In this document: one piece after another, positions 3,320-64,000 of the stretch | Layout: the number at the start of each line of letters is the position of its first letter | Numbering within the stretch: the first letter of the stretch is position 1 | IMG/VR virus record: IMGVR_UViG_3300020312_000068 | Span: 18,022-82,021 of that record | Length of the DNA: 64,000 nucleotides | Source: a virus | Strand: one strand, 5' to 3' | Notes under the pieces: model-generated | What the model was told of the DNA's origin: nothing | Databases searched by the model: none | The model's input: the letters and a program-made list of their open reading frames with translations, nothing else | Made by a program: the position numbers and the translations under genes

Positions 3320-3323
3320 GCAC

Positions 3324-3488
3324 ATGATTAAATCAAACATGGACGATCCAGTCTATTTCACTAAGACTGAGGTCAAATTCCTTAAGTTCTGCCTATCGCA
3401 GAGCATGGAGTGGGTCTACCACTCAGATAGGGTACAACAGCAAGCTATCATTGCTAAACTGGATCACCTATCGGAGGCACAAGATTAA
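3324..3488 (+). CDS. hypothetical protein
   Basis: Short ORF filling the gap after the methyltransferase; start uncertain. Confidence 0.5.
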   Translation: MIKSNMDDPVYFTKTEVKFLKFCLSQSMEWVYHSDRVQQQAIIAKLDHLSEAQD

Positions 3489-3548
3489 TATGTTGAGGAT
3501 GATGAAACTATTATTTGTAATTTCTGGAGTTTGGTTCTTACACTGGTT

Positions 3549-6156: not shown

Positions 6157-6399
6157 ATGCCCAGACAATATCCTTTCTCAAGAGGAGATTATGTTCAAGT
6201 AGATGGGGAGGAGGGATACATTAATTGTATCTCTCCCCATTACTTTACTCTCACTACGCACCAGTGGGAAGCGCCTGGTACTCTACACGGAGTAAGACAA
6301 GTCAATGTACTTATCTTCAGGCATCTTTGGCCTAACATCATTTTCATTTCTAAACATCATGTGGATTCCGATGAACACGATTCAGATCAAGGCATGTGA
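6157..6399 (+). CDS. hypothetical protein (SH3/KOW-like pattern)
   Basis: GAGG RBS; FSRGDYVQVDGEEGYI beta pattern. Confidence 0.65.
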   Translation: MPRQYPFSRGDYVQVDGEEGYINCISPHYFTLTTHQWEAPGTLHGVRQVNVLIFRHLWPNIIFISKHHVDSDEHDSDQGM

Positions 6400-6568
6400 C
6401 CAAGAGGTACACGTCGCCATAGAAAAGAAGAGAAGAGGATATTATTGGAGTTATGAACATCTAAACAAGTTCTATGGTCCATTCAAGGGCAAAGAAGATT
6501 GTTTAACTGATGCTCGCACGTATAGCAGGTATGGTACTACAAATAAACAACTCATTTCATCAACCTAG
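6371..6568 (+). CDS. hypothetical protein
   Basis: MNTIQIK...GYYWSY...YGPF; start inferred. Confidence 0.55.
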   Translation: MNTIQIKACDQEVHVAIEKKRRGYYWSYEHLNKFYGPFKGKEDCLTDARTYSRYGTTNKQLISST

Positions 6569-7124
6569 TGATGTAGAAAGAAGACTGTTAGTAATAGATC
6601 GTTTCAAGGATATAATACTACAGGAGTTCTTACCACTAACACTGGAGTTCAAAGACCTATCAACTTACCAAGATGATTACATTAACAGTAATGGTCAAGG
6701 GTATACGATAGGTCTTGAACAGTATGAAAAAGCAAAAGAACAAGACAGTGGATGGGCAATAGCACCATTATGGTATGATGATTATGAGTATACACGTAAC
6801 AGTATGCTCATGCCCAAGACAACTAAACTATTGAAGTGGATAGGACATACAACGTATGCTGGCATAACAGCATTACATCCTGATCATGGACTAGACTGGC
6901 ACCATGATGATGATCCATTTCCTAACAAGTTACAGATGAGAGTATTCTATACTCTAAAGACATGCGGAGGATCATACATTGAGGTAGAGGAGACAGAGAA
7001 GAGGATTAAGAAGAGGTACTTCAAAGAACAAGAATACATCATATTTCATAGTAAGAAGAGACACAGAGTATGGAACGAAGGTATTCTACCAAGGTATTCT
7101 CTTGTAATTGACGTTTTGAAATAA
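6531..7124 (+). CDS. Asp/Asn beta-hydroxylase-like 2OG-Fe(II) oxygenase
   Basis: WHHDD (HxD), HRVWNEG, RYSLVIDV C-terminal pattern. Confidence 0.75.
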   Translation: MVLQINNSFHQPSDVERRLLVIDRFKDIILQEFLPLTLEFKDLSTYQDDYINSNGQGYTIGLEQYEKAKEQDSGWAIAPLWYDDYEYTRNSMLMPKTTKLLKWIGHTTYAGITALHPDHGLDWHHDDDPFPNKLQMRVFYTLKTCGGSYIEVEETEKRIKKRYFKEQEYIIFHSKKRHRVWNEGILPRYSLVIDVLK

Positions 7125-7275
7125 ATGTTTAATTAAATGTGTATGGGCGTAGATACTCTTGGATAGTATCCTGAGAATAAAGGGTGCTTATTGAGAATAA
7201 ATCAGCGGAAATGCTAGTAAACATGCGGTGTCGTTGTGGTCTAAGGCCGTCGCCTACCAAAAGTCAAGCAGCCTT

Positions 7276-31000: not shown

Positions 31001-33804
31001 TCAACCATGCTATTAATGTTGGTGATGAGGTTTTATTTGACGACGGTGCTATAACATTCAGTTGTAACTTTGGTGGTGCTTCAGGTGCTGCTGCTCAGAA
31101 GTCATACCCACGTAATACTGACTATGCTAGTGGTAAGTGGTTAAAGGTTCATGCTAAGACTGCTAATACATTTACTGTACAGGTATTAGATACAATACCT
31201 TCTACTAACACTGATGCTCATACATTTGTATCTGGTGTTACTAATGCTATCAATGTAAGAGACCCTCTAAGTGGTAGATTCGTTGAGATCTTTAATGTAA
31301 CACAACATACTTTCGATATTCAAGTCTTAGATACTATTCCTTCTAGCATATCTTCTAATCATACATTTGCTTCTGCTGTATCTAACTCTATTCAGAGAGC
31401 AGAAATTAGAGCGAAGCGTGACAGATCATTCGATCATGCTGTTAATATTTCAGCGGTGTCTGCTACTACTATTACATTAGATGTTGGTATATCTTCTCAT
31501 GTATCTCCACATCAGTTTGTATCTGCTCTAGCTGATAGTATCATTACTGGTGGAAACCATGCTCATAAGTTTAAGAGTGCTTCAGCAGGTGCTGTAATAA
31601 CAGGTGGATCATATAACCACACATTCTTAAGTGCTGATTCTGGTGCTGTCTTGAATGGACAGTGGGGATGTACTCATGTACAGGCTTCTGTAGATACTTT
31701 GATGGATCTAGCATATACCGCTATACATCAGGGTAACTTCAGTGGAATTACAAGAACGGTAGGTCAGTGTGGTGACGGTTATGAAACTGCACCAACTATA
31801 TCTGTAAGTGGTGGTACACCTACTACTGCTGGTACTCTTGTTCCAATATTATCTGACGAAGGATATATCAAGAAGATTGATCTTATCGCAACAGGAGCTG
31901 GATACAACAATGTACCTACTGTAAAGATTACATCTAATACTGGTTCAGGTGCTACTGCCACTGCTGCTGTTGCTGCTGGTGCTCTTACTGGTATTACCGT
32001 AACTGAGGCTGGATTTGGATATGATGATGTAACAGTTGAAATCATTAAGAACGCTGCTGATACTATTACAACTACAGCTACTGCTTTTGCTACTGTTGGA
32101 AGATACTTAGAAAGGATTGATGTACAAACTACAGGTAAAGGATATAATTCTGCCCCTGCTGTATCAATTAGTGGTGGTACACCTGCTACTGCTGCTAGTG
32201 GTGGTCTTAGCAGACTAACTGGAGCAGTAACAGATGTTGCTCTCGTTTCTGGTGGAGATGGATATCAAGATACTGATGTATTAGGTGCTAATGCTGCTGA
32301 TATTGGTGGTACAGTCACAAATTCCTTCCAGGTTGAAGTTGACACAGTAACCTTTAATGGAGTTACTACACAGTTTGCTGCTACTGTTGGTGGTACTGGA
32401 TATAACCTACCTGCTAATGATAGATTCTTATTATTCTTGAACTCTACTATACAGAAGGTTTCTACTTCTTACACATATACAGGCACACCATCTACTATTA
32501 CCTTCTTGGAAGCTCCTAAGGGTAATATGGACTTCTACTGCTTCTATGTTGGACAGTTACAGGATATGGATGATCTTTCACCATACTTTAATGGAACTAG
32601 AAAGACATTTATCCTTAAGAAGAATGATCAACCATTCTCACTTGAATCTGATTCAACAGAAGTTGTAACAGCAAATAATATTGTTATGTTCTTGAATGGA
32701 ATATATCAGGAACCTGAAGTTGCCTTTACTCTTAATGGTTCTATCCTTGAGTTTAGTGAGGCACCTAGATCAGGTACTGACGTATCAATTCTAATCTATA
32801 CTGGATCTAATCTTGATATAGTAACTGAAGATACTTACAACTGTATTGACCCTGGTGATTTACTACAGATTGAGTCCGAGGGAGACATACGTACACTTGC
32901 TACTGTTGCTAGTTCCTCCTCATTAGATACATATGAGTATACAGGACTACGACCAACTGTTGCTGAGTTTACTGCTGTAATTTCTGGTGGTAAGGTCGTT
33001 GACGTGATTATCACTAATCCAGGTTCTAATTATGAAGTTGCTCCATACCTACTATTCAATGGTGGTGGTGGAACTGGTGCTTTCGCACAGACTGAAATAT
33101 CTGTAGGTAGTGGTCAAGTTATAGCGGTAACCAATCTAGAGGGTGGATCCGATTATAATACTGTTCCTTCTGCTACAGCATATCATCCTATAGCACTTGA
33201 AAGAACACAGAGGGATAGGGCAATATCTAATGTCAACTTCTTGTATACAACTCATTTGGATGCTTCTTTAACAGCAACTGATACTACAGTTAATGTTCTT
33301 AATGCTTATTATAATGCTGGAATTGGATTCCCATCCCAGGGTGAGATATTAATTCCATATTGGAATGCTGTTGAATCTGTATGGGGTGCTGAAAGAATCC
33401 TATATGGTTCTGTTGATTACTCAACTAACCAGTTTACAGTTACTACCAATGGTAGAGGACATCAAGATACGGGTCCATCGTTAGGTGTTGGACACGTTAT
33501 CAATGTTGAAACTGGAACTTATTCCTCTGTGATTAAGAGTGGTGATGCTTGGACTAATGGTATCCAGACTTCCTATAAAATGAGTGAGGTTACTGCTACT
33601 ATGGCTGCTAACCACAATCGTGAAACTGGTGAGGAAGTATACATTCAATTCTTATCTGGTACTGTTTCTGGTACAGATTTAGATGGAACTTATAAGATAA
33701 AGAAAACGGGAGCAACGACCTTCACGGTTGAGATCCCAGTAGCACTAGCTGTTAGTGGACAGAATCTACAGATTCTTCCAACAGTTCGTGTCTACACCGT
33801 ATAA
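16057..33804 (+). CDS. gp7: giant baseplate wedge initiator gp7 (5915 aa) with inserted YHYH-like, globin/phycobiliprotein-like and beta-repeat domains
   Basis: [57 protein letters not shown]; lies between gp6 and gp8. Confidence 0.88.
23866..27840 (+). repeat. helical repeat domains (DA.xLI..N...C.xD...GGN...GEE...C..V), 6 copies in gp7
   Basis: Clusters at 23866-25290 and 26521-27840; the last closing helix is at about 31663-31740. Confidence 0.85.
25370..31660 (+). repeat. beta repeat (Y.P.TG...HG...TFTC..H..YPR.TDP...HTFVSA), 14 YPR copies in gp7
   Basis: Counted from the translation. Confidence 0.88.
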
Positions 33805-51896: not shown

Positions 51897-52436
51897 ATGG
51901 CGACGAAGAATTTCAGTTCAATAGGCGGATTTGCCGTAGGCTCAACTGAGGTGTTAAATACACATTATGAGCTTAAAAATATATCAGCAATTCACATGGT
52001 TGCTGATGATTTTACTGATGCATCAAATGACCTATACATAGCAAAGAGAACCACAACTCCTACTGATAATTTACTTCGTTTAAGTTTTGATGGCAGTACC
52101 AACATTGCTACTAATAGCCCAGCACTAGGACATAATAGTGTTGCCTTTGTGAAGGCAAAGGTATTTGGGCAAGAGACTAGCAACAATATATACTGTCTAG
52201 CTTCGATGTTTGATTGTGTGGTTACAGTAGACACTAATGGTGTTCCTACTCTACAAGGTCAGTATGAGCAGGTCATACATGAGCATCTTCCAGGAATTGA
52301 GTCCTGGTCTATATCACCCGTTGCTTTTCAGATTGGTAGCAACGCATATTTTAGTTTTGATGTTGAGTCAGTTTCGACTACCTCAACCGTGAAGTGGATT
52401 GGTATTATTGATATTACTAAAGTAACAACAGCATAA
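51897..52436 (+). CDS. virion structural protein
   Basis: GAGG RBS, late promoter, NFSSIGGFAVG start. Confidence 0.8.
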   Translation: MATKNFSSIGGFAVGSTEVLNTHYELKNISAIHMVADDFTDASNDLYIAKRTTTPTDNLLRLSFDGSTNIATNSPALGHNSVAFVKAKVFGQETSNNIYCLASMFDCVVTVDTNGVPTLQGQYEQVIHEHLPGIESWSISPVAFQIGSNAYFSFDVESVSTTSTVKWIGIIDITKVTTA

Positions 52437-52451
52437 CTGGAGTACAAGTAG

Positions 52452-55400
52452 ATGACGTTTAGGCTGAGTTCATCACAACAAAGAATTGAGGGCACTGGGT
52501 CAGTTCCGCAGGGACCGTGGACAAGTGCCACTTATGGTCGTGCCAACGGTATAGTCACCGTTACGTCGATTGCTCATCGACTTAATACGAACGAAAGGTT
52601 GTATGTCAAACCTGGTTCTGATAATTTGCTGAGAACTTTTGATGAAGGTCAATATACAATAACGGTTGTAGACGAAGATACATTTACTATATCAGGTACT
52701 GGTCAGAACTTCATTGAAGCTGCCACTACTATATCATACAGATCTGTAAGATCTTTAGTCATTAATGCTTCAGATAGAATGGAGCTTAGTGTTGGTTCTG
52801 GTGCCAACGAAGATGACGCTGTATTCATAACGAAGAGTGATACTGGTAATATTCGTGTAGGTATTAATAATACAAATCCTGAGTTTGACTTAGACGTTGA
52901 AGGTCAGATAAGAACCACAAGGTCTATCATCTCAGACACTGCTCAAATTCGTAACCTAGACGTTCAAAACGAATTTGTAACTAAGGGACTAGACCTAAGA
53001 GGTCCCAACTTAATTAACTTTGAAGAAACAGATCCAACAGCAAACGACTTCGGTACGATCTATTATCCTACCGCTGATAACCCACCGAGGCAGACTCAGA
53101 ACAACCGAGTTGCTACAACCAAATTCGTTTATGACGTTGCTACTGCTGACAATGGTGGTCGTGTCTACGTATCCTCTGTCGCTGGTATTGGTGACGATGC
53201 TAACGATGGTAGGTCTGCTGCCAAGCCAGTTCGTACAATTAAGAAAGCTGCTCAGATCGCTTATAGTCTTCAGCAAGACACTCAGACACCTGAGTACGTA
53301 TCTATTATTGTATCTGGTGGTGACTATCTAGAAGATAACCCAATATCTCTACCATATAACTGCTCTCTAATTGGTGATAACTTAAGAAGAGTTATCTTAC
53401 GTCCATTGAATATGGACAGGCACATGATTAAAGCGTCTAATGAGACGTATTGTGCTGGTGTTGTATTCAGGGATCACTTAGACGCTAGTGGACTGCCTGA
53501 CTGGACATGGAAGTATGCTTATGTGTTTGACGATAAGCAACGTCTCATGTATGAGCCAGACCTTGCTCCATTTGAATTCTCTCCAGGTTTAGAAAACAAA
53601 GGTAGAAACATCTTTGCTATTACCTTTGAGAACCACACAGGTGACAATACTACATTACTTGTTGGATACGCTGTAGAAGGTGGATCATCTTCTGCTAGAG
53701 CGATCATTGAACAAGTAACCTTCACGGGTCCACAAGCATCTCCATATTCATCTGGTACTATTATCGTACTGATGGATGATGATGAATCAACCTTCCAGCT
53801 CGCTGAAAGATTATACTATGCTGATGTTTATGCTAACATTGTTAAGACAGGTGCTTCCCCATCTGACTCACTTGACGTTGCTGATAGAGAATCACAAAGA
53901 CCTGAAACTGAGGTTATCAAACACCAGAGGTACCAGTGGGTAATTAACTCTGAGGAAGAGAAGCTTCGCTTCGATGGTAGTAGTGATACTATAGTTGATG
54001 CTACTAATAATGAAATTACTATACCTTTCCACAGATTAGAAACTGGTTGGAAGGTATTCTATACAGTAGAAAACGAAGGTGGAACAGCTCCACAAGGTTT
54101 AGTTAAGAATACTACATATTTCGTTCGTAAGATAGACGATAATAAAATTGCTCTATATGATACTGCTGCCAATGCTTTAAACATCCAGGTAACTACTGGT
54201 GTTAGAGACTTGGGAGATCCTGGTTCAGGTGATGAGCATACTTTGTATCATTCTAGAATATTCACTAGAGATAATACAATTTACTTCCCCAAGCATGGTC
54301 TCTTTACTGGAAATGGTGTTTACTACCGTCCATCTAAAGCAGCAAATATTGGTGGACTTGTAACTAATAGTTTAATCTATGTTTACAAGATAGATGATAA
54401 CTATTTCCAAGTATGTAATACACAGGCAGATGCTACCTCTAAAGATATAGGTGGTAATGATACTCCTGTTGTTTTACCTTTAACTGATACAGGTAAGGGT
54501 TATCAAAGATTTGAGAAAGCAATTAACGTTGTTGACGTTGCTACTGTAACTACTGATCTTGCTACTCAGCAAACATATAATGGTATTAAGTTAACTGTAA
54601 CAGGTGCTTCTAGAACTATTGAAGGTATTCCTTTTGTAGGTCATGACTACGAAGTAGGTCAAGAAGTACAGATTTATGGTTTACCATATACTGCTATTGA
54701 CTTTGGTACAAGTGCTACAACCACTTATACGCAATCTACTGATACTATAACAATTACGATTGCTAACACAGATCCTTCTAAGATGAATGCTCTGTGGCCA
54801 AACCTAACAACTATTGGTGGTGCTGCTGGTAAAGGTGTTGGTATCCATTGTACATTTGATGCTGGTGGACATCAATCTAAGTCTTTCCATATTGCTCAGT
54901 ATGCTAATGGTACACTTGCCCAGACACAAAGTGATTTTGCCACAGTCTTAGGTGGTAGTTCTAACCTAGGTGCTGGTGTTGCTAGATATAATTCATCAAC
55001 AAACGAAGTATACTTTGTAATCAGAGCATCAGATTCTGCTACTAGATCTGGTAACTGTGCTGTCTTAGATAACTTAGGTGACTTTAATGGACGTAAATAT
55101 GTTACTCATCGTATTGAACGTGCTGATGGTTACTCACTAAACTTCTGTACAAGAGGTTCTTGCTCTAAGTTTGCTACAGACTTTGACCCAGCTGGTGACC
55201 AGCAGGTTTGTTCTGCTACAAACTATGCCTTGATGTCATTAAGGAACTCTCCTTACGCATTTGAAAAGGTTGAGTTTGGATCAAGCATCCAGGAAATGGC
55301 GAAGAGCAGAGATGCTGCTGAGACTCTTAATAATAACGTAGACTTCATTGCTATTGAGTCATACGCTCACGTCAAGAAATTATATAACGCTGGTACTTCT

Positions 55401-58400
55401 ACTAGCTTCACTAGATCAGGTTCATACACATGTTCTGGTAAGGTGATGACCGTTGTATGTGGAAGAGGTCATGGAGCATTTGCTAAGAATTCCTATAGTA
55501 TGGTATTCAGTGGTGCTACACCTGATGGTGCTTACATCATTGATGACACTGCTGATCATAGAACATTTACTATCCTATTAAGTACTGCTAGTACAGACAG
55601 TGGTACTGTAACAGTTACTATTCCTGCTCCTTGGCAGACACCTAACTCAGTTCCACCTGTAGATAGATCTGCTGATGGTTCATCCTTAATCCTTGCTAAC
55701 AAGCAGTTTATCGCTCAGGAAGCGGTAGCAAGAATGCTTGCTAACAATCCAGGATATAATGTTCCTACTGGTTCACAAGCATGTATAGATGATGCTGTAG
55801 ATTATATCGAAGCATTTACTTACAACCTAGCATACGGTGGTAACGACCAAGTTTGGGATGGTGCCAAGTACTATGTTGATGGATCACACGTTGTAGGTGA
55901 AGAGAATGAATCTGTAGAAGTCTTTAATTTAGTTAGAGATCTTGCTATACAGGTTACACGTAATGAGCCTATCACAGTTCAAGGTGGTCATGGTCTAACC
56001 CAGGTAAGAGATTATACTATTACTCCTGATGCTGCTGGTTCAGGTCAAGGTAACAAGCACGCTGATGCTCGTAACTTAATATGGGCTAACAAAGAATTTA
56101 TTGCTGACATTGCTGTCGGTAGAATGAATGCTGACTTCGGATACGAAGTACACAGCAATAAGCATGTTGACGCACATGATCTACTGATTGCTAATAAGGA
56201 CTTCATTGCTGCTGAGGCATATGCTTGGGAACTTGCTGAAGATCCTACACTACACGTTCCTACAGGAAACGGACAAGATTGTATTGATGATATTGCTGAT
56301 GTTGTAAACGCTGTTGCTTTCAACGTACAACACGGTGGTAACAACAAGGTTTGGGATGCTGCTAGTTACTATGTTGGTACACCTCACCTAGATGACGAGG
56401 AGTTCCAGTCAGTACGTTGCTTTGAACATGCTAGAGAGATCTGTAAGCTAGTTCTTGCTAACAATACTGTTGTAGTACGTGGAGATCACGTAAAGACACA
56501 GACCTTCGATACTACTATCACTCATGATAGCTCTGCTTCTTCAGGAGATTATACATCTGCTGATTGTACTGACGTAAGAGCAACTGTTGATACTCTGTTT
56601 GAAATCATTCACAGTGCTATCCTCAATGATAGTCTCAAGTCTATTAAGAAGGTTACACCTAGACCATATAAGGTACCTGCTGTTAATAAGTTAACTGCTA
56701 GTGGTGCTGAGTATAATCCTGCTACAGGTGTCATGACTCTAAGAGTCGGTACTGACACTAAGGATGTTTCTGCTGCTACCTTTGCTCCTGCTAGTGGTAA
56801 TTTAGAATTAAATATCGGTGCTCATAGTTTAACAACTTCCGATAAGATAAGAATTAATACAGGTTCATTAACCTTCCGTTGTGATCTTGATGGACAGTCA
56901 TCTGATCATGCGTATCCACGCACCAATATTGATTACTCAACTGCTGCTAGTGGTACTACTTACAATCCTACAACTGGTGTATTATCTGTTACTACAACTG
57001 TTGGTCATGGATTACAGAACGGTGACTGGGTTAAGTTTGCTGATGATTCTATAGTATTTGAGTGTGCTCAAGACGCAGGTAAGAATCATTCATATCCACG
57101 TCAAACAGATCCTATCTCTGGTAGATGGGTTGAGGTATCCAATGTCGGTGGATTGACATTTGATGTACAGGTTCTAGCAACTCAACCATCAACTAATACT
57201 ACAGTTCATACATTCGTTAGCGCAACTGCTAATGGTATATGGAAGAAGAGAGATAGAGCATACGAGCAAGATCTACCTATCACAGCAGTATCTTCTACTA
57301 CTATCACAGTTAATGTTGGTATTTCTAGTGATACTTCTACTCATGTATTCCAGTCAGCAACTGCTGGTGCTGTTATCCTAAGTCACGGTCTTACTACTTC
57401 TCAGTACATTAAGCTTGCTAATGACTCTCTGACATTTACTTGTGGTCAGAATAATGGTCAGACCAATATGACTTATCCTAAGTCATCTTCTACTGCTAAT
57501 CAGGAAGGATGGTCTGCTATCACTGCTGTAACAGTTGACACTGTTGACATCAACATTGGTACTACAACTGTTGAAGGATTTGAAGCTAAGAATGCTACAT
57601 ACAATGCTTCTAATGGTGAGATGGTTGTTACCATCGGAGCTAATAACTTCAAGGTTGGTCAGACAATCAATCTAGCACCTAGATCAATAAACTTTACTTG
57701 CGAGCAGGATGATAACCAAACTGTTCACGCATATCCAAGAGAGACAGATCCATATTACAGTCAACCAGTAGCCATCAGTGCTATAGGTAACTCAACCTCT
57801 TCAGTAACTGATGCTACATTTGATCCTGCTGAAGGTAAGTTGACACTTACTATTCCTGATCATGGATTGAGACAGGATAGTCAGATTAAGATTGCTGATG
57901 GATCACTAACATTTACATGTGCTCACGATAGTCATGCTACAGATCATGCTTATCCAAGAGCAGAACAGAAAGCTATTACTGCTACAGATGCTGCCTATAA
58001 TACAGCAACTGGTATAGTTACAGTCACACAGACTGGACATGGACTTAAGGTTGGTGAGTATATCAAAGTTAAAGATAATGCTCTAACCTTTAGTTGTACT
58101 CATGGTGGTGGTGGACAGTCTTCTTATCCACGTCCATCTGATCCTATTAGTGGAAAGTGGATCCCAGTTACTGCTGTCTCTGGTGACACATTCTCATTCA
58201 AGTGTTTAACCACTGTACCTTCTACTAATACTGACACTCATACATTCGTATCTGCTACTACTGGTGGTATCATTAAGAGAGATCCAGATAGTGATCAGTG
58301 GAGACATGTACAGGTTGTCGATAAGGATACAGTTAACGTTTGTATTGCTACATCTTCTAACGAAACAGTACACGCATTCAAATCAGCAACTGCTAATAAT

Positions 58401-61400
58401 ATAACTCATAAAGATTCTACGATTACATTAAACGTAGGACCAACTGCTGCTGTAGACTATACACCAACAGGTGCTACTTATGATCCTACAACTGGTGATA
58501 TGGTTCTTACCATAAACCAGCACCCTGACATTGTTGGAGCAACTCCACATGTCGCAACAGGAGCTAGTTATGATGCTGTTACTGGTCTCATGGAGATCCA
58601 GATTGCTGGTGAGAATGAATTTAATGAAGGTCAGTTTGTAAGAATCCCAAGAGATTCATTCAACTTCACATGTGACATGGATGGTAATACATCCACGAAG
58701 TCATATCCTAGAGCAACAGATGATGCTGCTGATTGGTGGCTTCCTATTAAATCTGTAGGTAAGACAGCTACAGGACAGTATATTAATGTAGAAGTAGGTA
58801 AGTCTCCTGCTAAGAATTTCACAGTATCTGATGCTACCTATAATCCTACCTCTGGTGACATGGAACTCACCTTGGGTACTCATAGATTGCAAGCTGGTAC
58901 AGCTATTAGGTTAGGAAAAGATTCATTAATCTTTACTTGTGACTTTAATAGTGACGGTAATACAACTCAAAAGACATATCCTAGAGCAACTGGATCTTCA
59001 GCTGCTGGTGGTAAGGACTACGCATATGATACAGCACTGAATATTACTGCTGTAGGACATGCTAAGAGTACATCAACTGATGCTGCTTACAACCCAACTA
59101 CAGGTGTAATGACCTTAACGGTTCCTAACCATGGATTCGTTAATGGTGATAGAGTTAGAATCGCTGATGATTCATTAACCTTTACTTGTACTGAAGGTGC
59201 TGGTAATCACTCTTATCCTAGAGCATCTAAGTCTACTCACACAGCAGGTAACGGTACAACATATAATCCTAATACAGGTGTATTGGTTGTTGACACTGGT
59301 AGTGCTCACAACATGGTTAATGGTGATTGGGTTAAGTTCAACGATAATTCATTAACATTCACATGTACTCATGGTGGTGGTAATCACACTTATCCTCGTG
59401 CTACTGATCCTATGAGTGGTAAGTGGGTACAGATCGAAAGTGTATCCTCTACATCATTCACTGTAGCTGGTAATAAGATTCTAGATGCAATCCCATCAAC
59501 TAACACTACTGCTCATACATTCGTAAGTGGTGCTACAGATGGTATCGTACATAAGGATCCTGCTAGTGGTAACTTCCTAACAGTTTCAAATGTAACTCAG
59601 AATACATTTGATGTTCAGGTATTAACCTCTGCTCCATCTACAAATACTACAGTACATACCTACGTTTCATCTACTGCTAATAACATTGAGTTAGAGAACT
59701 CAACTATTACAGTTAATGTTAACGGTGGTCAGGGTGCTATTACAGATACTACAGTACATAACTTCGTAGCTTCTCCTAAGTTACAACCAACTGATGCTTC
59801 TTACAACCCAACAACGGGTGTAATGTCAGTGACCATAGTTGGTCATGGAATGGACAATGGAGAGTATGTTAAGTTTGACGATAATACATTTACATTCAAG
59901 TGTGCTCATGATAGCAATGCTACAGATCACACATATCCAAGACCTCAAGATCCTGCTAGTGGATCATGGTTAAAGGTTTCTAACGTTACTGCTGATACAT
60001 TTGAAGTAACTGTTCTTACAAAGATTCCTTCAACTAACGAAACAGTACACGCATTCCAGTCAGCAACTGCTGGTGTTACTAGAAGCCAAGTACGTTCAGG
60101 TGGTGCCTATGCTCATACTTACGTAGCTCCAACTGATCTAACACCTACTGGTGCTGTTTACAATCCAACAACAGGTATAATGACTCTTACAATTCCTAAC
60201 CATGGAATTGCTGATAAAGAGTACGTTAAACTTGCTGACGGTGCTGTAACATTCACTTGTACTGAAGGTGCTGGTAATCATTCATATCCTCGTGCTACTG
60301 ACCCTGCTAGTGGTAAGTGGTTACAGACAACTTATGTTGATGCTAATAGTTTCAGCGTACAAGTTCTTGCTAAGATTCCATCTACTAACACTACAACTCA
60401 CACTTATGTAAGTGCTGCTGCTAATAGTGTTAAGAGATCTCAGTTTATCAGATCAAAACAATCAATCAGATTGGCTGATAGTGCTGTCACATTTGAATGT
60501 GATCTCAACGCAAGAGCAACTCAACACTCATATCCACGTGCTGCTCTAACTCAGTACACAGCAACTAACGCAACCTATGATGCCAATGATGGTGTCATGG
60601 AACTCACTGTTCCTGGTCATGGAATGAATGAGGGTGATTGGGTTACACTTGCTAATGATTCTATTTCATTCAAGTGCCCTTACGGTACTGGAACACCTCA
60701 TACATGGGCTGGTGGAACATCATATAATGCTATAACAGTAACTGCTGGTAGCGTTAAGAAAGATGTAACTACTGCTACATTTGATCCTGCTAATGGTCTT
60801 ATAGAATTGACCATTGGTGCTCACTCATTCACAACTAGCGATACAATAACTATTGCTCCTGATGCTATTAAGTTCACATGTAATGCTGACTATCATCAGA
60901 CAGTTCATAGTTATCCTCGTTCAACAGACCCATCATACAATACAGCAATAGCGATAACTGCTGTAACTGCTACTACTATAACTGCTAATGTTGGTGCTGT
61001 ATCTGGAAACGTAGCGAAATCTTATCCACGTGCTTCAGATCCTATCTCTGGTAATTACGTAAGAATCTTTAACGTAACTCCAGACACATTCGCTATACAA
61101 GTTTTAGATGATATCCCATCTACCCAAACACAAGTACATACATTTGTTTCAGCTGTAACTAATGGTATAACTCATAAGCGTGATCCATATCGTGCTTCTG
61201 CTATACCTGTAGCTGAGGTTGGAGAGTCCATGAGGTCTGTTTCCAACGCAGTATATAATGAGAATACTGGTGTAATGACTGTTACCGTTACTGGTCATGG
61301 ATTAACGACTGGTAATCGTATTAAGTTCGATAAAGAGTCATTGACCTTCACCTGTGCTAAGGATACTAATGCTACTCAGCATTCTTATCCACGAGTAACT

Positions 61401-64000
61401 GATCCTTATTATGATAAGTGGCTTCAGATAACTCAAATTGACGTTGATAACTTTACAGTTCAAGTCGGCACAGGAGGTCCAAATGATCGTTTCGCCCACA
61501 CGTTTGTCTCTGCAACCCCTGGTGGTATTAAGCTCCAAGATGGAACAATCAGGATCAATGTCGGAAAGTCAACTGACACTACTGCTCACTACTTTGTTAG
61601 TGCTCTTAGTAATTCCGTTAAAACAGGAGGGCCATACAACCATACCTTTGTTCCTACTCCAGGAATAACTCCAACAGGAGCAGACTACAATCCAACAACA
61701 GGTTGGATGAGAATCACAGCTGCGGATCATGGTTTAAGAAATGGTGACTTTATAACCGTTACTGAAAATGGTTTAACTTTCCGTTGCGATCATGATAGTC
61801 AGCAGACAGATCACAAATATCCTAGAAAGAGTGATCCACTATATCATAACTACGTAGAAGTTCGTGAGTGTACTCAGAACACATTCGACTTTAACGTATT
61901 ACAGGGTACAACCCCAACAAATACTACTACTCACGTATTCAAGACAGCAGTTACTGGATGTATCAGAAGAGCTGCTATTAAGAGTGGTGGTAATTATCCT
62001 CATAGATTTGTTTCAGCATCCGCTAATGGTGTTGAGGTATCAGGTGACAACCAAGATTGTAAGGATGACGTAATTGATATCCTACAGGTTGTTTCTTGGA
62101 ACCTTGCTATGGGTGGTAATGACTTCACCTATGATGCTGCTGAACTATACGTTACAGGCAACCATCTACAAGGTGAGGAACATCATTCCATCTATGCTTT
62201 ACGTCAGGCACAAGCGATTGCTATAGAATGTTTCCAGAATGAGACCGTAACAACTGGTGGACATACTACCAGATCACAGGTTAAGGATCTAACGATTACT
62301 CAGGATACAGGTCTACCAATCTGTAACACTGTAATCAGTTCCTTGACTACCTTAATGAATATCATTGAGGTTGCTATCGATACAGATAGTCTCTCTGGAA
62401 TAACAAGAACTGCATCACATACAACTCGTTGTGCTGACGTTGCTTCTACGATTACAACGTTAACACTTATACTTACCAATGCTATTGGTACAACTGGATC
62501 TCCAGGTAACTTAACTGGAGTAGCTAGAACATATCCAACATCCGATGAGCAATGTATTGATGACATCAGACACGTAATTCGTGCTTGGATGTATGACCTC
62601 AGATATGGTGGTAACTCACAAACAATACTATCTGCTGGTAAGTACATCAATGGTACAAATATTATTAATGTAAACAATGAGGTAGCTCAGACACGTCAGG
62701 TTTACGAGAAAGCTAAGGATATGTGTGTCCTTGCTATACGTAACCAGTTACCTGAAGCTAAGTTTACAGACATAACTCCATTCAGTAATGCTTCTACTAC
62801 TGTAGATCAGACTAAACCTGAATGTAACGCAATGATCACTAACTTGACAGCGTTACATACAATTTTAGACAACGCTCTTAACACCCCAACATCACTTGCT
62901 GGTGTAACTAATACTCCTCCAAGCACAATGCTTAAGGATGACAATGGTCTTAAGGTCGTTCCTATGTTGGGTGATCTATTAGATCTACCTGTTATCGAGG
63001 CATCTCCTTATATTCAGAACTCTTCACTTATATCCTTCCTTGGTGCTTCTGGTGCTGAGATTGATGGTGCCAAAGTTGCTACACCTAACGTTCCACGTCC
63101 AGGTGTCTACGCAGATGCTAACGGTGTTGAGAGACCAACGTGGCCTCATCAGGGTAAATCGATGGTTGCCAACGCATTCACTATCATATCGATTGGTGGT
63201 GGTGTTGGTTATAACATCCTCAATGATGGATATACACAGCTTGTATCTGTGTTCGTTATCTTCGGTGGAGACGGTGTTATCGTACAGTCAGGTGGATATG
63301 CTTCACTGACTAACTCTGCTTCTAACTTTGGTACTCGTTCACTTAAGGCAACAGGTTACAGATCTGAGGCATATGAATTTGATATTGGTACAATTACTAA
63401 TATCATCAACCAGACTGATAACAATGGTGCTCAAACTGGTCGTCAGATCATTGAAGTTGGTGGTACAACTCTAACTAACTTCCCAGTTGAAGATTACATC
63501 ATCAAGATTGATGGGTACACTAACACTGACCCTGCTAAGGAATACTTCATTCTTGGTGTAGAGAAACTATCTGGTTCTATCGGTACTCAAGTTACTGCTA
63601 ACGTTACTACTAACGATGGATTAGGATTAGACCTTGTAAGAACTTCTGATGGTCAGCAGATCGCTTATAGTCAGGGTAACTTAACTCCTGAACTTGTAGG
63701 TAAGACAATAAGATTCCACAGACCATCCATCTGTAACTCATCTGCCCATACGTGGGAATATGTAGGTGCTGGTGATACTTACTTAGCACTACCACAAAAC
63801 GGTGGTGTTGGTATCCCTGCTAACGAAGCTGTCGAAGAGAAGTATGGTCAGGTTTATACCTCAGGTACTAACGAATTCGGTGACTTCAAGGTTGGTGACT
63901 TCGTTACCATCTTTAACAGAACTGGTAGTATCAGCTTCGTTGGTACTGTTAGTATCTCTGAACTATCATCTATTAAGATTGTTGGTGGATCCATTACTAT
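52452..64000 (+). CDS. giant virion structural/fibre protein, >3849 aa, truncated by the window end
   Basis: GGAG RBS then ATG 52452 (MTFRLSSSQQRIEG...); the same frame reads open wherever checked (55311, 55671, 62040, 63000); the ORF track lists no closed ORF in this frame. Confidence 0.9.
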   Translation, partial: MTFRLSSSQQRIEGTGSVPQGPWTSATYGRANGIVTVTSIAHRLNTNERLYVKPGSDNLLRTFDEGQYTITVVDEDTFTISGTGQNFIEAATTISYRSVRSLVINASDRMELSVGSGANEDDAVFITKSDTGNIRVGINNTNPEFDLDVEGQIRTTRSIISDTAQIRNLDVQNEFVTKGLDLRGPNLINFEETDPTANDFGTIYYPTADNPPRQTQNNRVATTKFVYDVATADNGGRVYVSSVAGIGDDANDGRSAAKPVRTIKKAAQIAYSLQQDTQTPEYVSIIVSGGDYLEDNPISLPYNCSLIGDNLRRVILRPLNMDRHMIKASNETYCAGVVFRDHLDASGLPDWTWKYAYVFDDKQRLMYEPDLAPFEFSPGLENKGRNIFAITFENHTGDNTTLLVGYAVEGGSSSARAIIEQVTFTGPQASPYSSGTIIVLMDDDESTFQLAERLYYADVYANIVKTGASPSDSLDVADRESQRPETEVIKHQRYQWVINSEEEKLRFDGSSDTIVDATNNEITIPFHRLETGWKVFYTVENEGGTAPQGLVKNTTYFVRKIDDNKIALYDTAANALNIQVTTGVRDLGDPGSGDEHTLYHSRIFTRDNTIYFPKHGLFTGNGVYYRPSKAANIGGLVTNSLIYVYKIDDNYFQVCNTQADATSKDIGGNDTPVVLPLTDTGKGYQRFEKAINVVDVATVTTDLATQQTYNGIKLTVTGASRTIEGIPFVGHDYEVGQEVQIYGLPYTAIDFGTSATTTYTQSTDTITITIANTDPSKMNALWPNLTTIGGAAGKGVGIHCTFDAGGHQSKSFHIAQYANGTLAQTQSDFATVLGGSSNLGAGVARYNSSTNEVYFVIRASDSATRSGNCAVLDNLGDFNGRKYVTHRIERADGYSLNFCTRGSCSKFATDFDPAGDQQVCSATNYALMSLRNSPYAFEKVEFGSSIQEMAKSRDAAETLNNNVDFIAIESYAHVKKLYNAGTSTSFTRSGSYTCSGKVMTVVCGRGHGAFAKNSYSMVFSGATPDGAYIIDDTADHRTFTILLSTASTDSGTVTVTIPAPWQTPNSVPPVDRSADGSSLILANKQFIAQEAVARMLANNPGYNVPTGSQACIDDAVDYIEAFTYNLAYGGNDQVWDGAKYYVDGSHVVGEENESVEVFNLVRDLAIQVTRNEPITVQGGHGLTQVRDYTITPDAAGSGQGNKHADARNLIWANKEFIADIAVGRMNADFGYEVHSNKHVDAHDLLIANKDFIAAEAYAWELAEDPTLHVPTGNGQDCIDDIADVVNAVAFNVQHGGNNKVWDAASYYVGTPHLDDEEFQSVRCFEHAREICKLVLANNTVVVRGDHVKTQTFDTTITHDSSASSGDYTSADCTDVRATVDTLFEIIHSAILNDSLKSIKKVTPRPYKVPAVNKLTASGAEYNPATGVMTLRVGTDTKDVSAATFAPASGNLELNIGAHSLTTSDKIRINTGSLTFRCDLDGQSSDHAYPRTNIDYSTAASGTTYNPTTGVLSVTTTVGHGLQNGDWVKFADDSIVFECAQDAGKNHSYPRQTDPISGRWVEVSNVGGLTFDVQVLATQPSTNTTVHTFVSATANGIWKKRDRAYEQDLPITAVSSTTITVNVGISSDTSTHVFQSATAGAVILSHGLTTSQYIKLANDSLTFTCGQNNGQTNMTYPKSSSTANQEGWSAITAVTVDTVDINIGTTTVEGFEAKNATYNASNGEMVVTIGANNFKVGQTINLAPRSINFTCEQDDNQTVHAYPRETDPYYSQPVAISAIGNSTSSVTDATFDPAEGKLTLTIPDHGLRQDSQIKIADGSLTFTCAHDSHATDHAYPRAEQKAITATDAAYNTATGIVTVTQTGHGLKVGEYIKVKDNALTFSCTHGGGGQSSYPRPSDPISGKWIPVTAVSGDTFSFKCLTTVPSTNTDTHTFVSATTGGIIKRDPDSDQWRHVQVVDKDTVNVCIATSSNETVHAFKSATANNITHKDSTITLNVGPTAAVDYTPTGATYDPTTGDMVLTINQHPDIVGATPHVATGASYDAVTGLMEIQIAGENEFNEGQFVRIPRDSFNFTCDMDGNTSTKSYPRATDDAADWWLPIKSVGKTATGQYINVEVGKSPAKNFTVSDATYNPTSGDMELTLGTHRLQAGTAIRLGKDSLIFTCDFNSDGNTTQKTYPRATGSSAAGGKDYAYDTALNITAVGHAKSTSTDAAYNPTTGVMTLTVPNHGFVNGDRVRIADDSLTFTCTEGAGNHSYPRASKSTHTAGNGTTYNPNTGVLVVDTGSAHNMVNGDWVKFNDNSLTFTCTHGGGNHTYPRATDPMSGKWVQIESVSSTSFTVAGNKILDAIPSTNTTAHTFVSGATDGIVHKDPASGNFLTVSNVTQNTFDVQVLTSAPSTNTTVHTYVSSTANNIELENSTITVNVNGGQGAITDTTVHNFVASPKLQPTDASYNPTTGVMSVTIVGHGMDNGEYVKFDDNTFTFKCAHDSNATDHTYPRPQDPASGSWLKVSNVTADTFEVTVLTKIPSTNETVHAFQSATAGVTRSQVRSGGAYAHTYVAPTDLTPTGAVYNPTTGIMTLTIPNHGIADKEYVKLADGAVTFTCTEGAGNHSYPRATDPASGKWLQTTYVDANSFSVQVLAKIPSTNTTTHTYVSAAANSVKRSQFIRSKQSIRLADSAVTFECDLNARATQHSYPRAALTQYTATNATYDANDGVMELTVPGHGMNEGDWVTLANDSISFKCPYGTGTPHTWAGGTSYNAITVTAGSVKKDVTTATFDPANGLIELTIGAHSFTTSDTITIAPDAIKFTCNADYHQTVHSYPRSTDPSYNTAIAITAVTATTITANVGAVSGNVAKSYPRASDPISGNYVRIFNVTPDTFAIQVLDDIPSTQTQVHTFVSAVTNGITHKRDPYRASAIPVAEVGESMRSVSNAVYNENTGVMTVTVTGHGLTTGNRIKFDKESLTFTCAKDTNATQHSYPRVTDPYYDKWLQITQIDVDNFTVQVGTGGPNDRFAHTFVSATPGGIKLQDGTIRINVGKSTDTTAHYFVSALSNSVKTGGPYNHTFVPTPGITPTGADYNPTTGWMRITAADHGLRNGDFITVTENGLTFRCDHDSQQTDHKYPRKSDPLYHNYVEVRECTQNTFDFNVLQGTTPTNTTTHVFKTAVTGCIRRAAIKSGGNYPHRFVSASANGVEVSGDNQDCKDDVIDILQVVSWNLAMGGNDFTYDAAELYVTGNHLQGEEHHSIYALRQAQAIAIECFQNETVTTGGHTTRSQVKDLTITQDTGLPICNTVISSLTTLMNIIEVAIDTDSLSGITRTASHTTRCADVASTITTLTLILTNAIGTTGSPGNLTGVARTYPTSDEQCIDDIRHVIRAWMYDLRYGGNSQTILSAGKYINGTNIINVNNEVAQTRQVYEKAKDMCVLAIRNQLPEAKFTDITPFSNASTTVDQTKPECNAMITNLTALHTILDNALNTPTSLAGVTNTPPSTMLKDDNGLKVVPMLGDLLDLPVIEASPYIQNSSLISFLGASGAEIDGAKVATPNVPRPGVYADANGVERPTWPHQGKSMVANAFTIISIGGGVGYNILNDGYTQLVSVFVIFGGDGVIVQSGGYASLTNSASNFGTRSLKATGYRSEAYEFDIGTITNIINQTDNNGAQTGRQIIEVGGTTLTNFPVEDYIIKIDGYTNTDPAKEYFILGVEKLSGSIGTQVTANVTTNDGLGLDLVRTSDGQQIAYSQGNLTPELVGKTIRFHRPSICNSSAHTWEYVGAGDTYLALPQNGGVGIPANEAVEEKYGQVYTSGTNEFGDFKVGDFVTIFNRTGSISFVGTVSISELSSIKIVGGSIT
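56690..62030 (+). repeat. beta repeat shared with gp7, about 17 YP(R/K) copies
   Basis: Same TFTC..H..YPR.TDP / HTFVSA motif in the frame of the 52452 ORF. Confidence 0.85.

What the first reader, a model, noticed from the sequence alone, without database searches (positions are those of the whole stretch)
55308..62880. Four more phycobiliprotein-like domains in a second giant virion protein missing from the ORF track
Seen in the 52452 frame: ADGSSLILANKQFIAQEAVARMLANNPGYNVPTGSQACIDDAVDYIEAFTYNLAYGGNDQVWD (Cys at nt 55782), VDAHDLLIANKDFIAAEAY...QDCIDDIADVVNAVAFNVQHGGNN...ADCTDVRATVDTLFEII, QDCKDDVIDILQVVSWNLAMGGN and EQCIDDIRHVIRAWMYDLRYGGN...PECNAMITNL. All 10 copies across the two genes keep C-x-x-D despite clear divergence elsewhere, and ten Cys-led closing helices are present. 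This points to selection on these residues. With the baseplate's six-fold symmetry, a virion could carry dozens of such sites (inference).
Basis: partly seen in the sequence, partly recalled or inferred. Interest (0 to 1): 0.85.

Follow-up and report, generated by a model that had tools for sequence, protein, structure and literature searches.

The report
Phycobiliprotein-fold modules in cyanophage tail fibre
A giant tail-fibre gene of a marine cyanobacterial virus holds four modules that are true but distant relatives of the host's light-harvesting pigment proteins and keep the pigment-attachment cysteine, so it can now be tested whether virus particles carry pigment and sense light; pigment binding itself is not shown.

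Summary
ORF 52452-63998 (+) is open for 3849 codons and is cut by the contig end. It is the ortholog of the P-HM2 tail-fibre protein PHM2_096. A near-identical full-length relative has 5421 aa.

The ORF holds four ~165-aa helical modules; six more lie in the gp7-like ORF. All ten keep C-x-x-D.

The modules are homologous to phycobiliproteins:
- profile against PDB, best E 5e-4, nearly all hits phycobiliproteins
- hhalign probability 93%
- AlphaFold model with pLDDT 90, whose best structural matches are phycobiliproteins (Z up to 15.7)

The invariant Cys aligns with bilin site Cys84. A second Cys, in 3 of the 4 modules, aligns with the beta-155 site.

In 1175 module copies from metagenomes, Cys is kept in 98% and Asp in 99%. 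The module was found only in cyanophages.

It co-occurs with the phage bilin lyase gene cpeT in 23 of 24 module-bearing complete genomes, and 6 of 6 genomes without modules lack cpeT. That amounts to only 3 independent contrasts.

A complex prediction places the phage's own CpeT on the second-Cys loop (0.65 against best control 0.16).

Bilin attachment is inferred, not shown. This phage's modules lack the Arg86 equivalent.

The scan found the same kind of module before on at least eight other genomes. I found no paper describing it.

The parts
52452..63998 (+). Giant tail-fibre ORF, 3849 codons, no stop, cut by the contig end. Ortholog of P-HM2 PHM2_096. A near-identical full-length relative (P0173) has 5421 aa.
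   Evidence: (phrog_5342 tail fiber)
52452..55637 (+). N-terminal region (aa 1-1062). 49% identical to the P-HM2 PHM2_096 N-terminus. No Pfam family.
55638..56153 (+). Module 1 (aa 1063-1234). Cys84-like Cys at nt 55782 in CIDD. Closed by a Cys-free 'ADARNLIWANKEFI' helix.
   Evidence: Pfam PF00502 partial hit aa 1079-1132
56136..56666 (+). Module 2 (aa 1229-1405). Cys84-like Cys at nt 56280 (CIDD). Beta-155-like Cys at nt 56565 leads the closing helix. This is the module that was folded.
56667..62018 (+). About 1780-aa beta-rich insertion with 17 [YW]P[RK] repeats (TF.C..D....H.YPR type). It lies between the closing helix of module 2 and the Cys helix of module 3.
62019..62426 (+). Module 3 core (aa ~3190-3325). 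It has no B-like helix of its own. Cys84-like Cys at nt 62058 (CKDD). Closing-helix Cys at nt 62322.
62430..62501 (+). Extra Cys-led helix (aa 3327-3350). In the alignment it takes the place of helix B of module 4.
62412..62930 (+). Module 4 (aa 3321-3493). Cys84-like Cys at nt 62553 (CIDD). Closing-helix Cys at nt 62823.
62931..63998 (+). C-terminal region present in the window (aa 3494-3849). 54% identical to P-HM2 PHM2_096 from its aa 1558 on. About 1570 aa are missing beyond the contig end.
23851..28020 (+). Six paralogous modules inside the gp7-like ORF 16057-33804. These are the other six of the ten copies.

Best explanation
SHOWN. The ORF encodes the large tail-fibre or baseplate-fibre protein of a P-HM2-like T4-type cyanomyovirus. 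Four ~165-aa helical modules in it are diverged homologues of phycobiliproteins and have the phycobiliprotein (globin-like) fold. They run from helix B to helix H. Their invariant Cys and Asp sit on bilin site Cys84 and on Asp87. In 3 of the 4 modules a second Cys leads the last helix, as beta-Cys155 does. The modules lie in two pairs on either side of a ~1780-aa beta-rich insertion.

INFERRED, and my preferred mechanism. In the infected cell the modules are chromophorylated with host- or phage-made bilin. The phage's own T-type lyase CpeT serves the beta-155-like Cys. The Cys84-like Cys is served by a host S/U-type lyase or autocatalytically. The assembled fibre would then carry covalently bound bilin on the virion.

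What the pigment does there, for example light sensing for adsorption, is speculation beyond this statement.
For: Homology and fold
- The profile of the 10 window copies against PDB gave 57 sequences at E <= 10. Of these, 55 are named phycobiliproteins, one is a 'bacterial fluorescent protein' and one is a SusD-like protein. Best hit is 7ap5 at E 5e-4. Query positions 14-68 align to chain positions 41-101, with Cys on Cys84.
- The 33-row profile gave 128 sequences at E <= 1. Some alignments run from query 4-6 to 145 against chain 32-34 to 176.
- Pfam PF00502 scores 19.9 bits on this ORF, below the 22.2 cut-off, but 61.2 bits on relative P0004. By my count, 78 of 120 listed relatives carry a precomputed PF00502 hit.
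- hhalign of 384 modules against 10 phycobiliproteins of a marine Synechococcus genome: probability 93.3%, E 2.7e-7, 96 columns. Against beta subunits only: 135 columns, 81.5%, with the closing helices aligned.
- AlphaFold2 model, no templates: pLDDT 90, pTM 0.87.
- Foldseek against PDB: every listed row is a phycobiliprotein-family chain, TM 0.52-0.65.
- VIA-align against 48,161 chains: the top 8 rows are phycobiliprotein family, Z 12.3-15.7. Sensor globins follow at Z 9-11.

Constraint
- In 1175 module copies, Cys is kept in 98%, Arg at +2 in 92%, Asp at +3 in 99% and Gly at +5 in 76%. That gives the K-C-x-R-D-x-G motif of phycobiliproteins.

Range
- tblastn of two module types against 50,697 phage records found 350 and 334 records. 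All carry Synechococcus, Cyanophage or Prochlorococcus names, apart from one 'Marine'.
- BFVD gave 22 hits at E <= 1e-3. The named ones are cyanophage or uncultured-phage tail or structural proteins.

Link to CpeT
- This contig encodes CpeT (PF06206, 53.8 bits).
- In 19 complete genomes chosen without regard to either trait, 13 have both, 6 have neither and none is discordant. Fisher p 3.7e-5, not corrected for kinship.
- In 11 further genomes picked through a hit of one partner, 10 have both.
- In S-CAM1, cpeT lies about 1 kb upstream of the module-bearing tail gene.
- Complex prediction of module 2 with this contig's CpeT: the model supports binding but does not show it. Score 0.65, best of 3 controls 0.16. 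That mark was reached by 58 of 80 solved complexes and 2 of 110 mismatched pairs; the counts hold only roughly because my own alignment was used. The runs agree in at least 86% of contacts and the partner's pLDDT is at least 85. The interface on the module is residues 63-64, 67-69 (GGN), 138-144 (loop with the beta-155-like Cys144) and 146-160. I recall no solved T-type lyase-phycobiliprotein complex, but I did not check.
Against: - No tool here can show a chromophore.
- All 4 modules of this ORF, and 9 of 10 in the phage, have Asp or another residue where phycobiliproteins have the propionate-binding Arg86. Across the family the position is Arg in 92%.
- The co-occurrence rests on only 3 independent contrasts on a gp6 tree. 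cpeT goes the same way in 2-3 of them and the opposite way in none. The sign test gives p 0.25-0.5.
- S-SKS1 has a module but no CpeT match.
- P-SSM2 and S-SSM7 carry pebS and ho1 (Sullivan 2010, Table 3) but have no module. So the phage bilin-synthesis genes do not track the modules.
- Cluster-C cyanophages are reported to carry an S-type lyase (PMC10665884) yet have no module.
- This 82-kb contig shows no bilin reductase and no haem oxygenase, but it is only about 45% complete.
- The second Cys is present in only 127 of 498 modules that have a closing helix.
- The match on this ORF to PF00502 is below Pfam's cut-off.
Confidence: 0.45

Rival explanations
1. Apo structural module. The phycobiliprotein fold was captured long ago and now serves only as a rigid helical spacer or hinge in baseplate and fibre proteins, with no chromophore. 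The conserved Cys, Asp and GGN have a structural or assembly role.
For: - Up to 34 module stretches occur per protein in giant proteins, which suits a fibre building block.
- In tandem copies, the closing helix of one module aligns where helix B of the next should be. That suggests a continuous rod.
- The Arg86 equivalent is lost in 9 of 10 copies of this phage.
- S-SKS1 has a module without CpeT.
- The co-occurrence with cpeT rests on 3 independent contrasts only.
Against: - A ligand-free fold would not be expected to keep exactly the bilin triad (Cys 98%, Arg 92%, Asp 99%) through copies that share about 20-45% identity.
- cpeT never occurs without modules in the 30 genomes tested.
- The complex prediction places CpeT on the second-Cys loop.
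Confidence: 0.4
2. The conserved cysteines serve another chemistry: disulfide bonds, metal binding or another covalent cross-link that stabilises the extracellular fibre.
For: - Virions are extracellular.
- Two conserved Cys per module occur in the type that dominates in this phage: 30 of 31 C-x-D-D modules have the second Cys.
- An acidic D-D follows the Cys in this phage.
Against: - In the phycobiliprotein fold the Cys84 and Cys155 positions lie far apart. This is inference from the aligned helices: Cys49 starts helix E, while the interface around Cys144 touches the other end of helix E at residues 63-69.
- Most family members (371 of 498) have no second Cys.
- The K-C-x-R-D-x-G motif matches a bilin site, not a known metal site. 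That comparison is from my own knowledge.
Confidence: 0.1
3. Chance or convergent likeness: an unrelated helical bundle that happens to share a C-x-x-D...GG motif.
For: - Single-module Pfam hits are weak: 3 of 10 members match, best E 0.013.
- The Pfam score for this ORF is below the cut-off.
Against: - hhalign probability 93%, E 2.7e-7.
- The model's top structural matches are all phycobiliproteins over about 150-165 residues.
- PF00502 scores 61 bits on a relative.
- Alignments reach from helix B to helix H.
Confidence: 0.02

Closest known systems
Phycobiliprotein subunits (Pfam PF00502; CpeB/MpeB, CpcB and CpcA/CpeA of the host)
   Same: - Same fold from helix B to helix H.
- Cys on Cys84 and Asp on Asp87.
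- GG at the end of helix E at identical spacing.
- Across the family, the motif K-C-x-R-D-x-G.
- A second Cys leads the last helix, as the beta-155 Cys does in beta subunits (compare 'GDC[AS][AS]L' in the Synechococcus beta subunits).

   Different: - About 15-20% identity.
- The profile alignments start only at phycobiliprotein columns ~25-36, so the N-terminal X helix has no counterpart.
- Embedded as tandem or nested modules in virion proteins of 3,000 to 6,000 aa rather than free 160-180-aa subunits.
- This phage's copies have Asp instead of Arg86.
- No evidence of alpha-beta pairing, trimers or a chromophore.
Bilin-binding domain of the phycobilisome core-membrane linker ApcE
   Same: - A phycobiliprotein-fold domain built into a large multidomain protein.
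- Close structural match: 4xxi_A, Z 13.9, rmsd 2.0 over 117 residues.
- From recall, not tested: ApcE carries a loop insertion between helices B and E and attaches its bilin autocatalytically. That is a precedent for a large insertion at that place and for lyase-free attachment.
   Different: ApcE is a cellular antenna protein with one such domain plus linker repeats. Here there are 4-10 modules per virion protein, inside a phage tail-fibre context.
P-HM2 PHM2_096 'tail fiber protein' (phrog_5342) and the cyanophage gp7-like giant baseplate proteins
   Same: - Ortholog: 49% identity over 1016 aa at the N-terminus and 54% over 662 aa from module 3 onward.
- Same gene order: gp7, gp8, VrlC-like, ..., second gp7-like, 179-aa protein, fibre.

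   Different: - The window's copy has a much longer beta-rich insertion. Module 3 starts at aa 3193 here and at aa 1558 in P-HM2.
- The database annotations say nothing about phycobiliprotein-like modules.
Sensor globins and the RsbR N-domain (globin-coupled sensors)
   Same: Globin-like fold used as a sensory module inside larger proteins (Z 8.6-11.2).
   Different: - They score lower than phycobiliproteins.
- There is no sequence-profile match.
- They bind haem or nothing, not bilin through Cys.

Membership tests
Phycobiliprotein family (Pfam PF00502) | Phycobiliprotein (globin-like) fold, helices B-E-F-G-H | tested here: met
   - AF2 model: pLDDT 90.
- Foldseek: all listed PDB rows are phycobiliprotein family.
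- VIA-align: top 8 rows at Z 12.3-15.7.
Phycobiliprotein family (Pfam PF00502) | Sequence match to the family profile above the curated cut-off | tested here: not met
   This ORF scores 19.9 bits against a cut-off of 22.2. Relatives pass: P0004 at 61.2 bits, and 78 of 120 listed relatives carry a precomputed PF00502 hit. hhalign gives 93.3%. Homology is therefore supported although this ORF alone fails the cut-off.
Phycobiliprotein family (Pfam PF00502) | Bilin-attachment Cys84 and Asp87 | tested here: met
   C49 and D52 are invariant in 10 of 10 copies. They align to C-x-R-D of phycobiliproteins.
Phycobiliprotein family (Pfam PF00502) | Arg86 (propionate contact) two residues after the Cys | tested here: not met
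   The modules of this ORF read CIDD, CIDD, CKDD, CIDD. Only 1 of 10 copies in the phage has Arg. Across the family it is Arg in 92%.
Phycobiliprotein family (Pfam PF00502) | N-terminal X-Y helices that mediate alpha-beta pairing | tested here: inconclusive
   Profile alignments begin at phycobiliprotein columns 25-36. VIA ranges reach chain residue 5 in one hit. Pairing was not modelled.
Phycobiliprotein family (Pfam PF00502) | Covalently bound bilin chromophore | not testable with these tools
   No bilin ligand is offered by any tool. This needs spectroscopy or mass spectrometry.
Substrate of a T-type bilin lyase (CpcT/CpeT) | Cys at the beta-153/155 position, in front of the last helix | tested here: met
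   Present in modules 2, 3 and 4 (aa 1372, 3291, 3458) and absent in module 1. It aligns with 'GDC' of the beta subunits.
Substrate of a T-type bilin lyase (CpcT/CpeT) | A T-type lyase gene in the same genome | tested here: met
   PF06206 scores 53.8 bits on the ORF at G000:C1 about 6743-7168. Co-occurrence holds in 23 of 24 module-bearing complete genomes.
Substrate of a T-type bilin lyase (CpcT/CpeT) | Physical recognition and bilin transfer | tested here: inconclusive
   The complex prediction supports binding: 0.65 against best control 0.16, a mark reached by 58 of 80 solved and 2 of 110 mismatched pairs, with the interface on the Cys144 loop. That is a model, not a measurement. Transfer is untested.
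T4-like cyanophage tail-fibre protein (phrog_5342; P-HM2 PHM2_096) | Full-length similarity and conserved gene order | tested here: met
   - phrog_5342: 1949.5 bits.
- BLASTP: 49% and 54% identity over the two ends.
- Same gene order as P-HM2.

The most novel reading that the evidence does not exclude
The virion itself is a pigment-bearing photoreceptor. Bilins attached by phage CpeT, and by host lyases, to the phycobiliprotein-fold modules of the baseplate and tail-fibre proteins would make the fibres change state in light. That would be the mechanism of the long-known light-dependent adsorption of cyanomyoviruses.

It would also give the 'unresolved' phage cpeT gene a substrate: the phage's own particle.

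The pattern so far fits. P-HM1, P-HM2 and S-PM2 adsorb only in light and carry 6, 6 and 13 modules plus cpeT. P-SSM2 adsorbs in the dark and has neither.
Probability: 0.2. Interest if true: 0.95.

Novelty: new variant of a known kind. Interest (0 to 1): 0.8.

Why it matters
Two questions in cyanophage biology have stood open since 2005-2010.

1. Why do cyanomyoviruses carry a bilin lyase gene (cpeT) without the rest of the host operon? Sullivan 2010 (PMC3037559; passages) calls the role 'unresolved' and calls the role of the phage bilin-synthesis genes 'a mystery'.

2. How can adsorption of some cyanophages depend on light but not on host photosynthesis? [quoted passage not shown]

Phycobiliprotein-fold modules in the fibre and baseplate proteins keep the attachment residues, occur only in cyanophages and go together with cpeT. 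They give both questions one concrete, cheap test: spectra, Zn-fluorescence gels and mass spectrometry of purified virions.

If pigment is found, it would be the first virus particle known to carry a light-absorbing cofactor for its own use. If it is not found, the modules remain a clear case of a host antenna protein turned into a virion building block.

I found no paper describing either. Automatic Pfam hits to PF00502 do exist on many relatives in public collections.

Tried and rejected
Things tried that led nowhere, or that count against a tempting reading:

- The search for related loci with alignments A1 and A2 failed because no stretch was conserved enough. I built the narrower alignment A3 and scanned genome contigs with the single pattern KCKRD[IL][GR][YF][FV]. 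Of 12 pattern hits, 1 was confirmed: a 194-kb contig in a Synechococcus MAG, probably a co-binned phage. This is a narrow test. It does not show that the module is absent from cellular genomes.
- An IMG/VR scan with a gp6 alignment, meant to enlarge the co-occurrence sample, returned 80 loci on contigs of at most 95 kb. That is too short to hold both cpeT and the fibre genes, so I dropped it.
- A link between the modules and the bilin-synthesis genes pebS, ho1 and pcyA is rejected. P-SSM2 and S-SSM7 have pebS and ho1 but no module. This contig shows none of these genes, but it is incomplete.
- A link to any bilin lyase type is also rejected. Cluster-C phages are reported with an S-type lyase and have no module.
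- The independent-pairs test gave too few contrasts (3) to reach significance.
- The literature searches found nothing on such domains.
- Gasper 2017 (phage CpeT) and Jia 2010 (light-dependent adsorption) are not held. What I say of them is recalled, or taken from papers that cite them. Supplementary tables are closed; virion proteomes there could bear on whether the fibre protein is in particles.
- Coordinates of the model are not available, so pocket geometry and the Cys-Cys distance could not be measured.
Full report
What the window is.
The window is bases 18022-82021 of an 82-kb IMG/VR virus record, estimated about 45% complete. Gene order and similarity match the T4-like cyanomyovirus P-HM2. 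The order is gp6, a 5915-aa gp7-like protein, gp8, a 2221-aa VrlC-like protein, a 559-aa protein, a second gp7-like protein of 2373 aa, a 179-aa structural protein, then the ORF in question. On a gp6 tree the window groups with P-HM1 and P-HM2 (100/100 support).

The observation.
Frame 52452-63998 (+) is open for 3849 codons and ends only because the contig ends. That is why an ORF track missed it.
- It matches phrog_5342 'tail fiber protein' at 1949.5 bits.
- It is the ortholog of P-HM2 PHM2_096, annotated as tail fiber protein: 49% identity over 1016 aa at the N-terminus and 54% over 662 aa from aa 3193.
- A 98.1%-identical relative from a 119-kb contig is 5421 aa long. It has the same four modules and no others. 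So about 1570 aa are missing here and the module count of four is complete.

Six more copies lie in the gp7-like ORF. In the 10-copy alignment P37, C49, D52, G67, N69 and Y79 are invariant at 38% mean column identity.

I count 4 Cys-led helices in this ORF and 5 in the other, 9 rather than 10. Module 1 here is closed by a Cys-free helix.

Anatomy.
A full module has these parts in order:
- a B-like helix (ADARNLI.ANK.FIA.EA)
- a loop ending in P.G
- the Cys helix (C-x-x-D ... GGN)
- a short helix (WDAA.YY)
- a helix starting at GEE
- a long loop (T.QG.HG.TQ..D.TIT.D)
- a closing helix, often led by Cys

In tandem copies the closing helix of one module aligns where the B helix of the next should be. 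In this ORF, modules 1-2 (aa 1063-1405) and 3-4 (aa ~3190-3493) are separated by about 1780 aa of beta-rich sequence with 17 [YW]P[RK] repeats. Module 3 has no B helix of its own. I infer that the beta array is an insertion in the loop before the Cys helix of module 3.

Is it phycobiliprotein-like? Four independent lines say yes.
1. Sequence profile.
 - The 10-copy profile finds 57 PDB sequences at E <= 10. Of these, 55 are named phycobiliproteins, one is a 'bacterial fluorescent protein' and one is a SusD-like protein at E 1.9. The best is phycoerythrin alpha at E 5e-4. The module Cys aligns with Cys84, and the preceding helix with helix B.
 - A 33-row profile (9 window copies plus 24 metagenome modules) finds 128 sequences at E <= 1. 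The 60 shown are all of that family, and some alignments run to the C-terminus of beta subunits.
2. Pfam.
 - PF00502 scores 19.9 bits on this ORF, below the 22.2 cut-off.
 - It scores 61.2 bits on relative P0004.
 - By my count, 78 of 120 listed relatives carry a precomputed PF00502 hit.
3. Profile-profile comparison.
 - I took ten phycobiliproteins from a marine Synechococcus genome.
 - hhalign of 384 modules against them gives probability 93.3%, E 2.7e-7 over 96 columns.
 - Against the three beta subunits alone it gives 135 columns at 81.5%, with the closing helices aligned.
4. Fold.
 - AlphaFold2 without templates gives pLDDT 90 and pTM 0.87 for module 2.
 - Foldseek against PDB lists only phycobiliprotein-family chains. 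Best E is 4.8e-4 and TM is 0.52-0.65 over about 165 columns.
 - VIA-align against 48,161 representative chains puts eight phycobiliprotein-family chains on top: PE beta at Z 15.7, rmsd 2.9 and 149 aligned; the ApcE bilin domain at Z 13.9, rmsd 2.0. Sensor globins follow at Z 9-11.

How wide and how constrained is the family?
- The profile finds 1152 representatives (50% clusters) at E <= 1e-3. The top 150 are mostly giant proteins with up to 34 stretches.
- In 1175 module copies from these, Cys is kept in 98%, Arg at +2 in 92%, Asp at +3 in 99%, Gly at +5 in 76%, Asp63 in 96% and Tyr79 in 93%.
- The family consensus K-C-x-R-D-x-G is the phycobiliprotein bilin-site motif. Compare KCARDIGYY in the Synechococcus phycocyanin alpha.
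- The window's copies are a subtype with C-x-D-D. Only 1 of 10 keeps Arg.
- This subtype nearly always has the second Cys: 30 of 31, against 92 of 448 in the Arg type and 127 of 498 overall.
- In beta subunits the second bilin Cys likewise leads the last helix (GDC[AS][AS]L).

Host range.
- tblastn of a window module and of an Arg-type module against 50,697 phage records finds 350 and 334 records. All carry Synechococcus, Cyanophage or Prochlorococcus names, apart from one 'Marine'.
- BFVD gives 22 structural matches at E <= 1e-3. Those with names are cyanophage or uncultured-phage tail or structural proteins.
- A narrow pattern scan of 185,579 species genomes confirmed only one locus, on a 194-kb contig of a Synechococcus MAG.

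Link to the phage bilin lyase.
- The contig encodes CpeT (PF06206, 53.8 bits) about 11 kb upstream of the window. A 2OG-Fe(II) oxygenase ORF overlaps its start.
- I scored module presence (A2 profile, six frames) and CpeT (PF06206) in complete genomes.
- Set 1 was the 16 cyanomyoviruses of Sullivan 2010 plus three cluster-C phages, chosen without regard to either trait.
 - Thirteen have both: P-HM1, P-HM2, S-PM2, P-SSM4, S-ShM2, S-SM1, P-RSM4, Syn33, Syn19, Syn1, S-SSM5, P-SSM7 and Syn9.
 - Six have neither: P-SSM2, S-SM2, S-SSM7, S-CREM2, S-H34 and S-CRM01.
 - None is discordant. Fisher p is 3.7e-5, uncorrected for kinship.
- Set 2 was 11 genomes picked because one partner had hit by tblastn. 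Ten have both. S-SKS1 has one module and no CpeT.
- On a gp6 tree of 31 rows each trait needs 3 changes. There are 3 independent contrasts. cpeT goes the same way in 2-3 of them and never the other way, and the sign test cannot reach significance (p 0.25-0.5). The association is striking but rests on few events.
- In S-CAM1, cpeT lies about 1 kb upstream of the 3693-aa module-bearing tail gene. The hit coordinates of S-CAM3, S-CAM4, ACG-2014h and S-RIM44 suggest the same neighbourhood.
- The bilin-synthesis genes do not track the modules (see evidence against).

Predicted complex.
Module 2 (with alignment A2) and this contig's CpeT gave a verdict that the model supports binding but does not show it.
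- Score 0.65, best of 3 controls 0.16.
- That mark was reached by 58 of 80 solved complexes and 2 of 110 mismatched pairs. The counts hold only roughly because my own alignment was used.
- The runs agree in at least 86% of contacts, and the partner's pLDDT is at least 85.
- The confident interface on the module is residues 63-64, 67-69 (the invariant GGN), 138-144 (the loop ending in the second Cys, C144 = aa 1372) and 146-160 (the closing helix).
- T-type lyases are described as serving Cys-153 of beta subunits (PMC10452541; passage), so the placement fits.
- I recall no solved T-type lyase-phycobiliprotein complex that the model could have memorised. I did not check this.

Light.
Liu et al. 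2019 (PMC6628666; passages) report the following:
- P-HM2 and P-HM1 do not adsorb in the dark.
- P-SSM2 does adsorb in the dark.
- The light-dependent adsorption of S-PM2 does not depend on photosynthesis.

The module and cpeT pattern fits: P-HM2, P-HM1 and S-PM2 have 6, 6 and 13 modules, and P-SSM2 has 0. That is four phages, two of them near-identical. It is an anecdote, not a test.

Verdict.
- Bilin attachment is my preferred mechanism at about 0.45. The chief rival is an apo structural module, at about 0.4.
- Against bilin in this phage specifically stands the loss of the Arg86 equivalent.
- The same kind of module was reported by this scan on at least eight other genomes, with the same reading, and on the gp7-like ORF of this window. 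Those are AI notes, not independent evidence. I saw the eight after my own tests were done.
- I found no paper on it in 10 searches, 8 of which aimed at such a description. Two key papers, Gasper 2017 and Jia 2010, and all supplements could not be read.

Noticed in passing
window 56667-62018 (aa 1406-3189 of the ORF): A beta-rich array of about 1780 aa with 17 [YW]P[RK] repeats of the type 'L.F.C..D....H.YPR'. Pfam finds nothing here at E <= 0.1, but many relatives carry precomputed PF14240 and PF23786. The array is much longer than in P-HM2, where the matching module starts at aa 1558 rather than 3193.
   Followed up: partly
L001:752-1701 (G000:C1 about 6219-7168, upstream of the window): A 2OG-Fe(II) oxygenase ORF (PF13640, 33.4 bits) overlaps the start of cpeT by 7 bases. 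In S-CAM1 a 2OG-Fe(II) oxygenase gene lies between cpeT and the module-bearing tail gene. It may be a conserved trio; I did not test this.
   Followed up: partly
L003 (JBJBBP010000001.1, 193,981-base contig of a Synechococcus MAG): This contig has the length of a cyanomyovirus genome and encodes a module-bearing protein (28% identity, E 4e-14). It is probably a phage genome binned with its host.
   Followed up: no
NC_020851.1 (S-SKS1), 17274-17792 minus strand: S-SKS1 is classed outside Kyanoviridae (Llyrvirus). It has one module in a 928-aa ORF and a gp6 homologue that nests beside S-CAM7 and P-SSM2, but no CpeT match. It is the only module-only genome among the 30 tested.
   Followed up: partly
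Family-wide (top 150 representatives): The modules fall into subtypes. The C-x-D-D type has a second Cys in 30 of 31 copies. The Arg type mostly lacks it (92 of 448 have it). Some proteins hold up to 34 module stretches.
   Followed up: partly
window 51897-52436: A 179-aa ORF directly upstream of the fibre gene matches phrog_5449 'virion structural protein' (E 2e-39) but no Pfam family. It is conserved in the same position in P-HM2 as PHM2_095.
   Followed up: no
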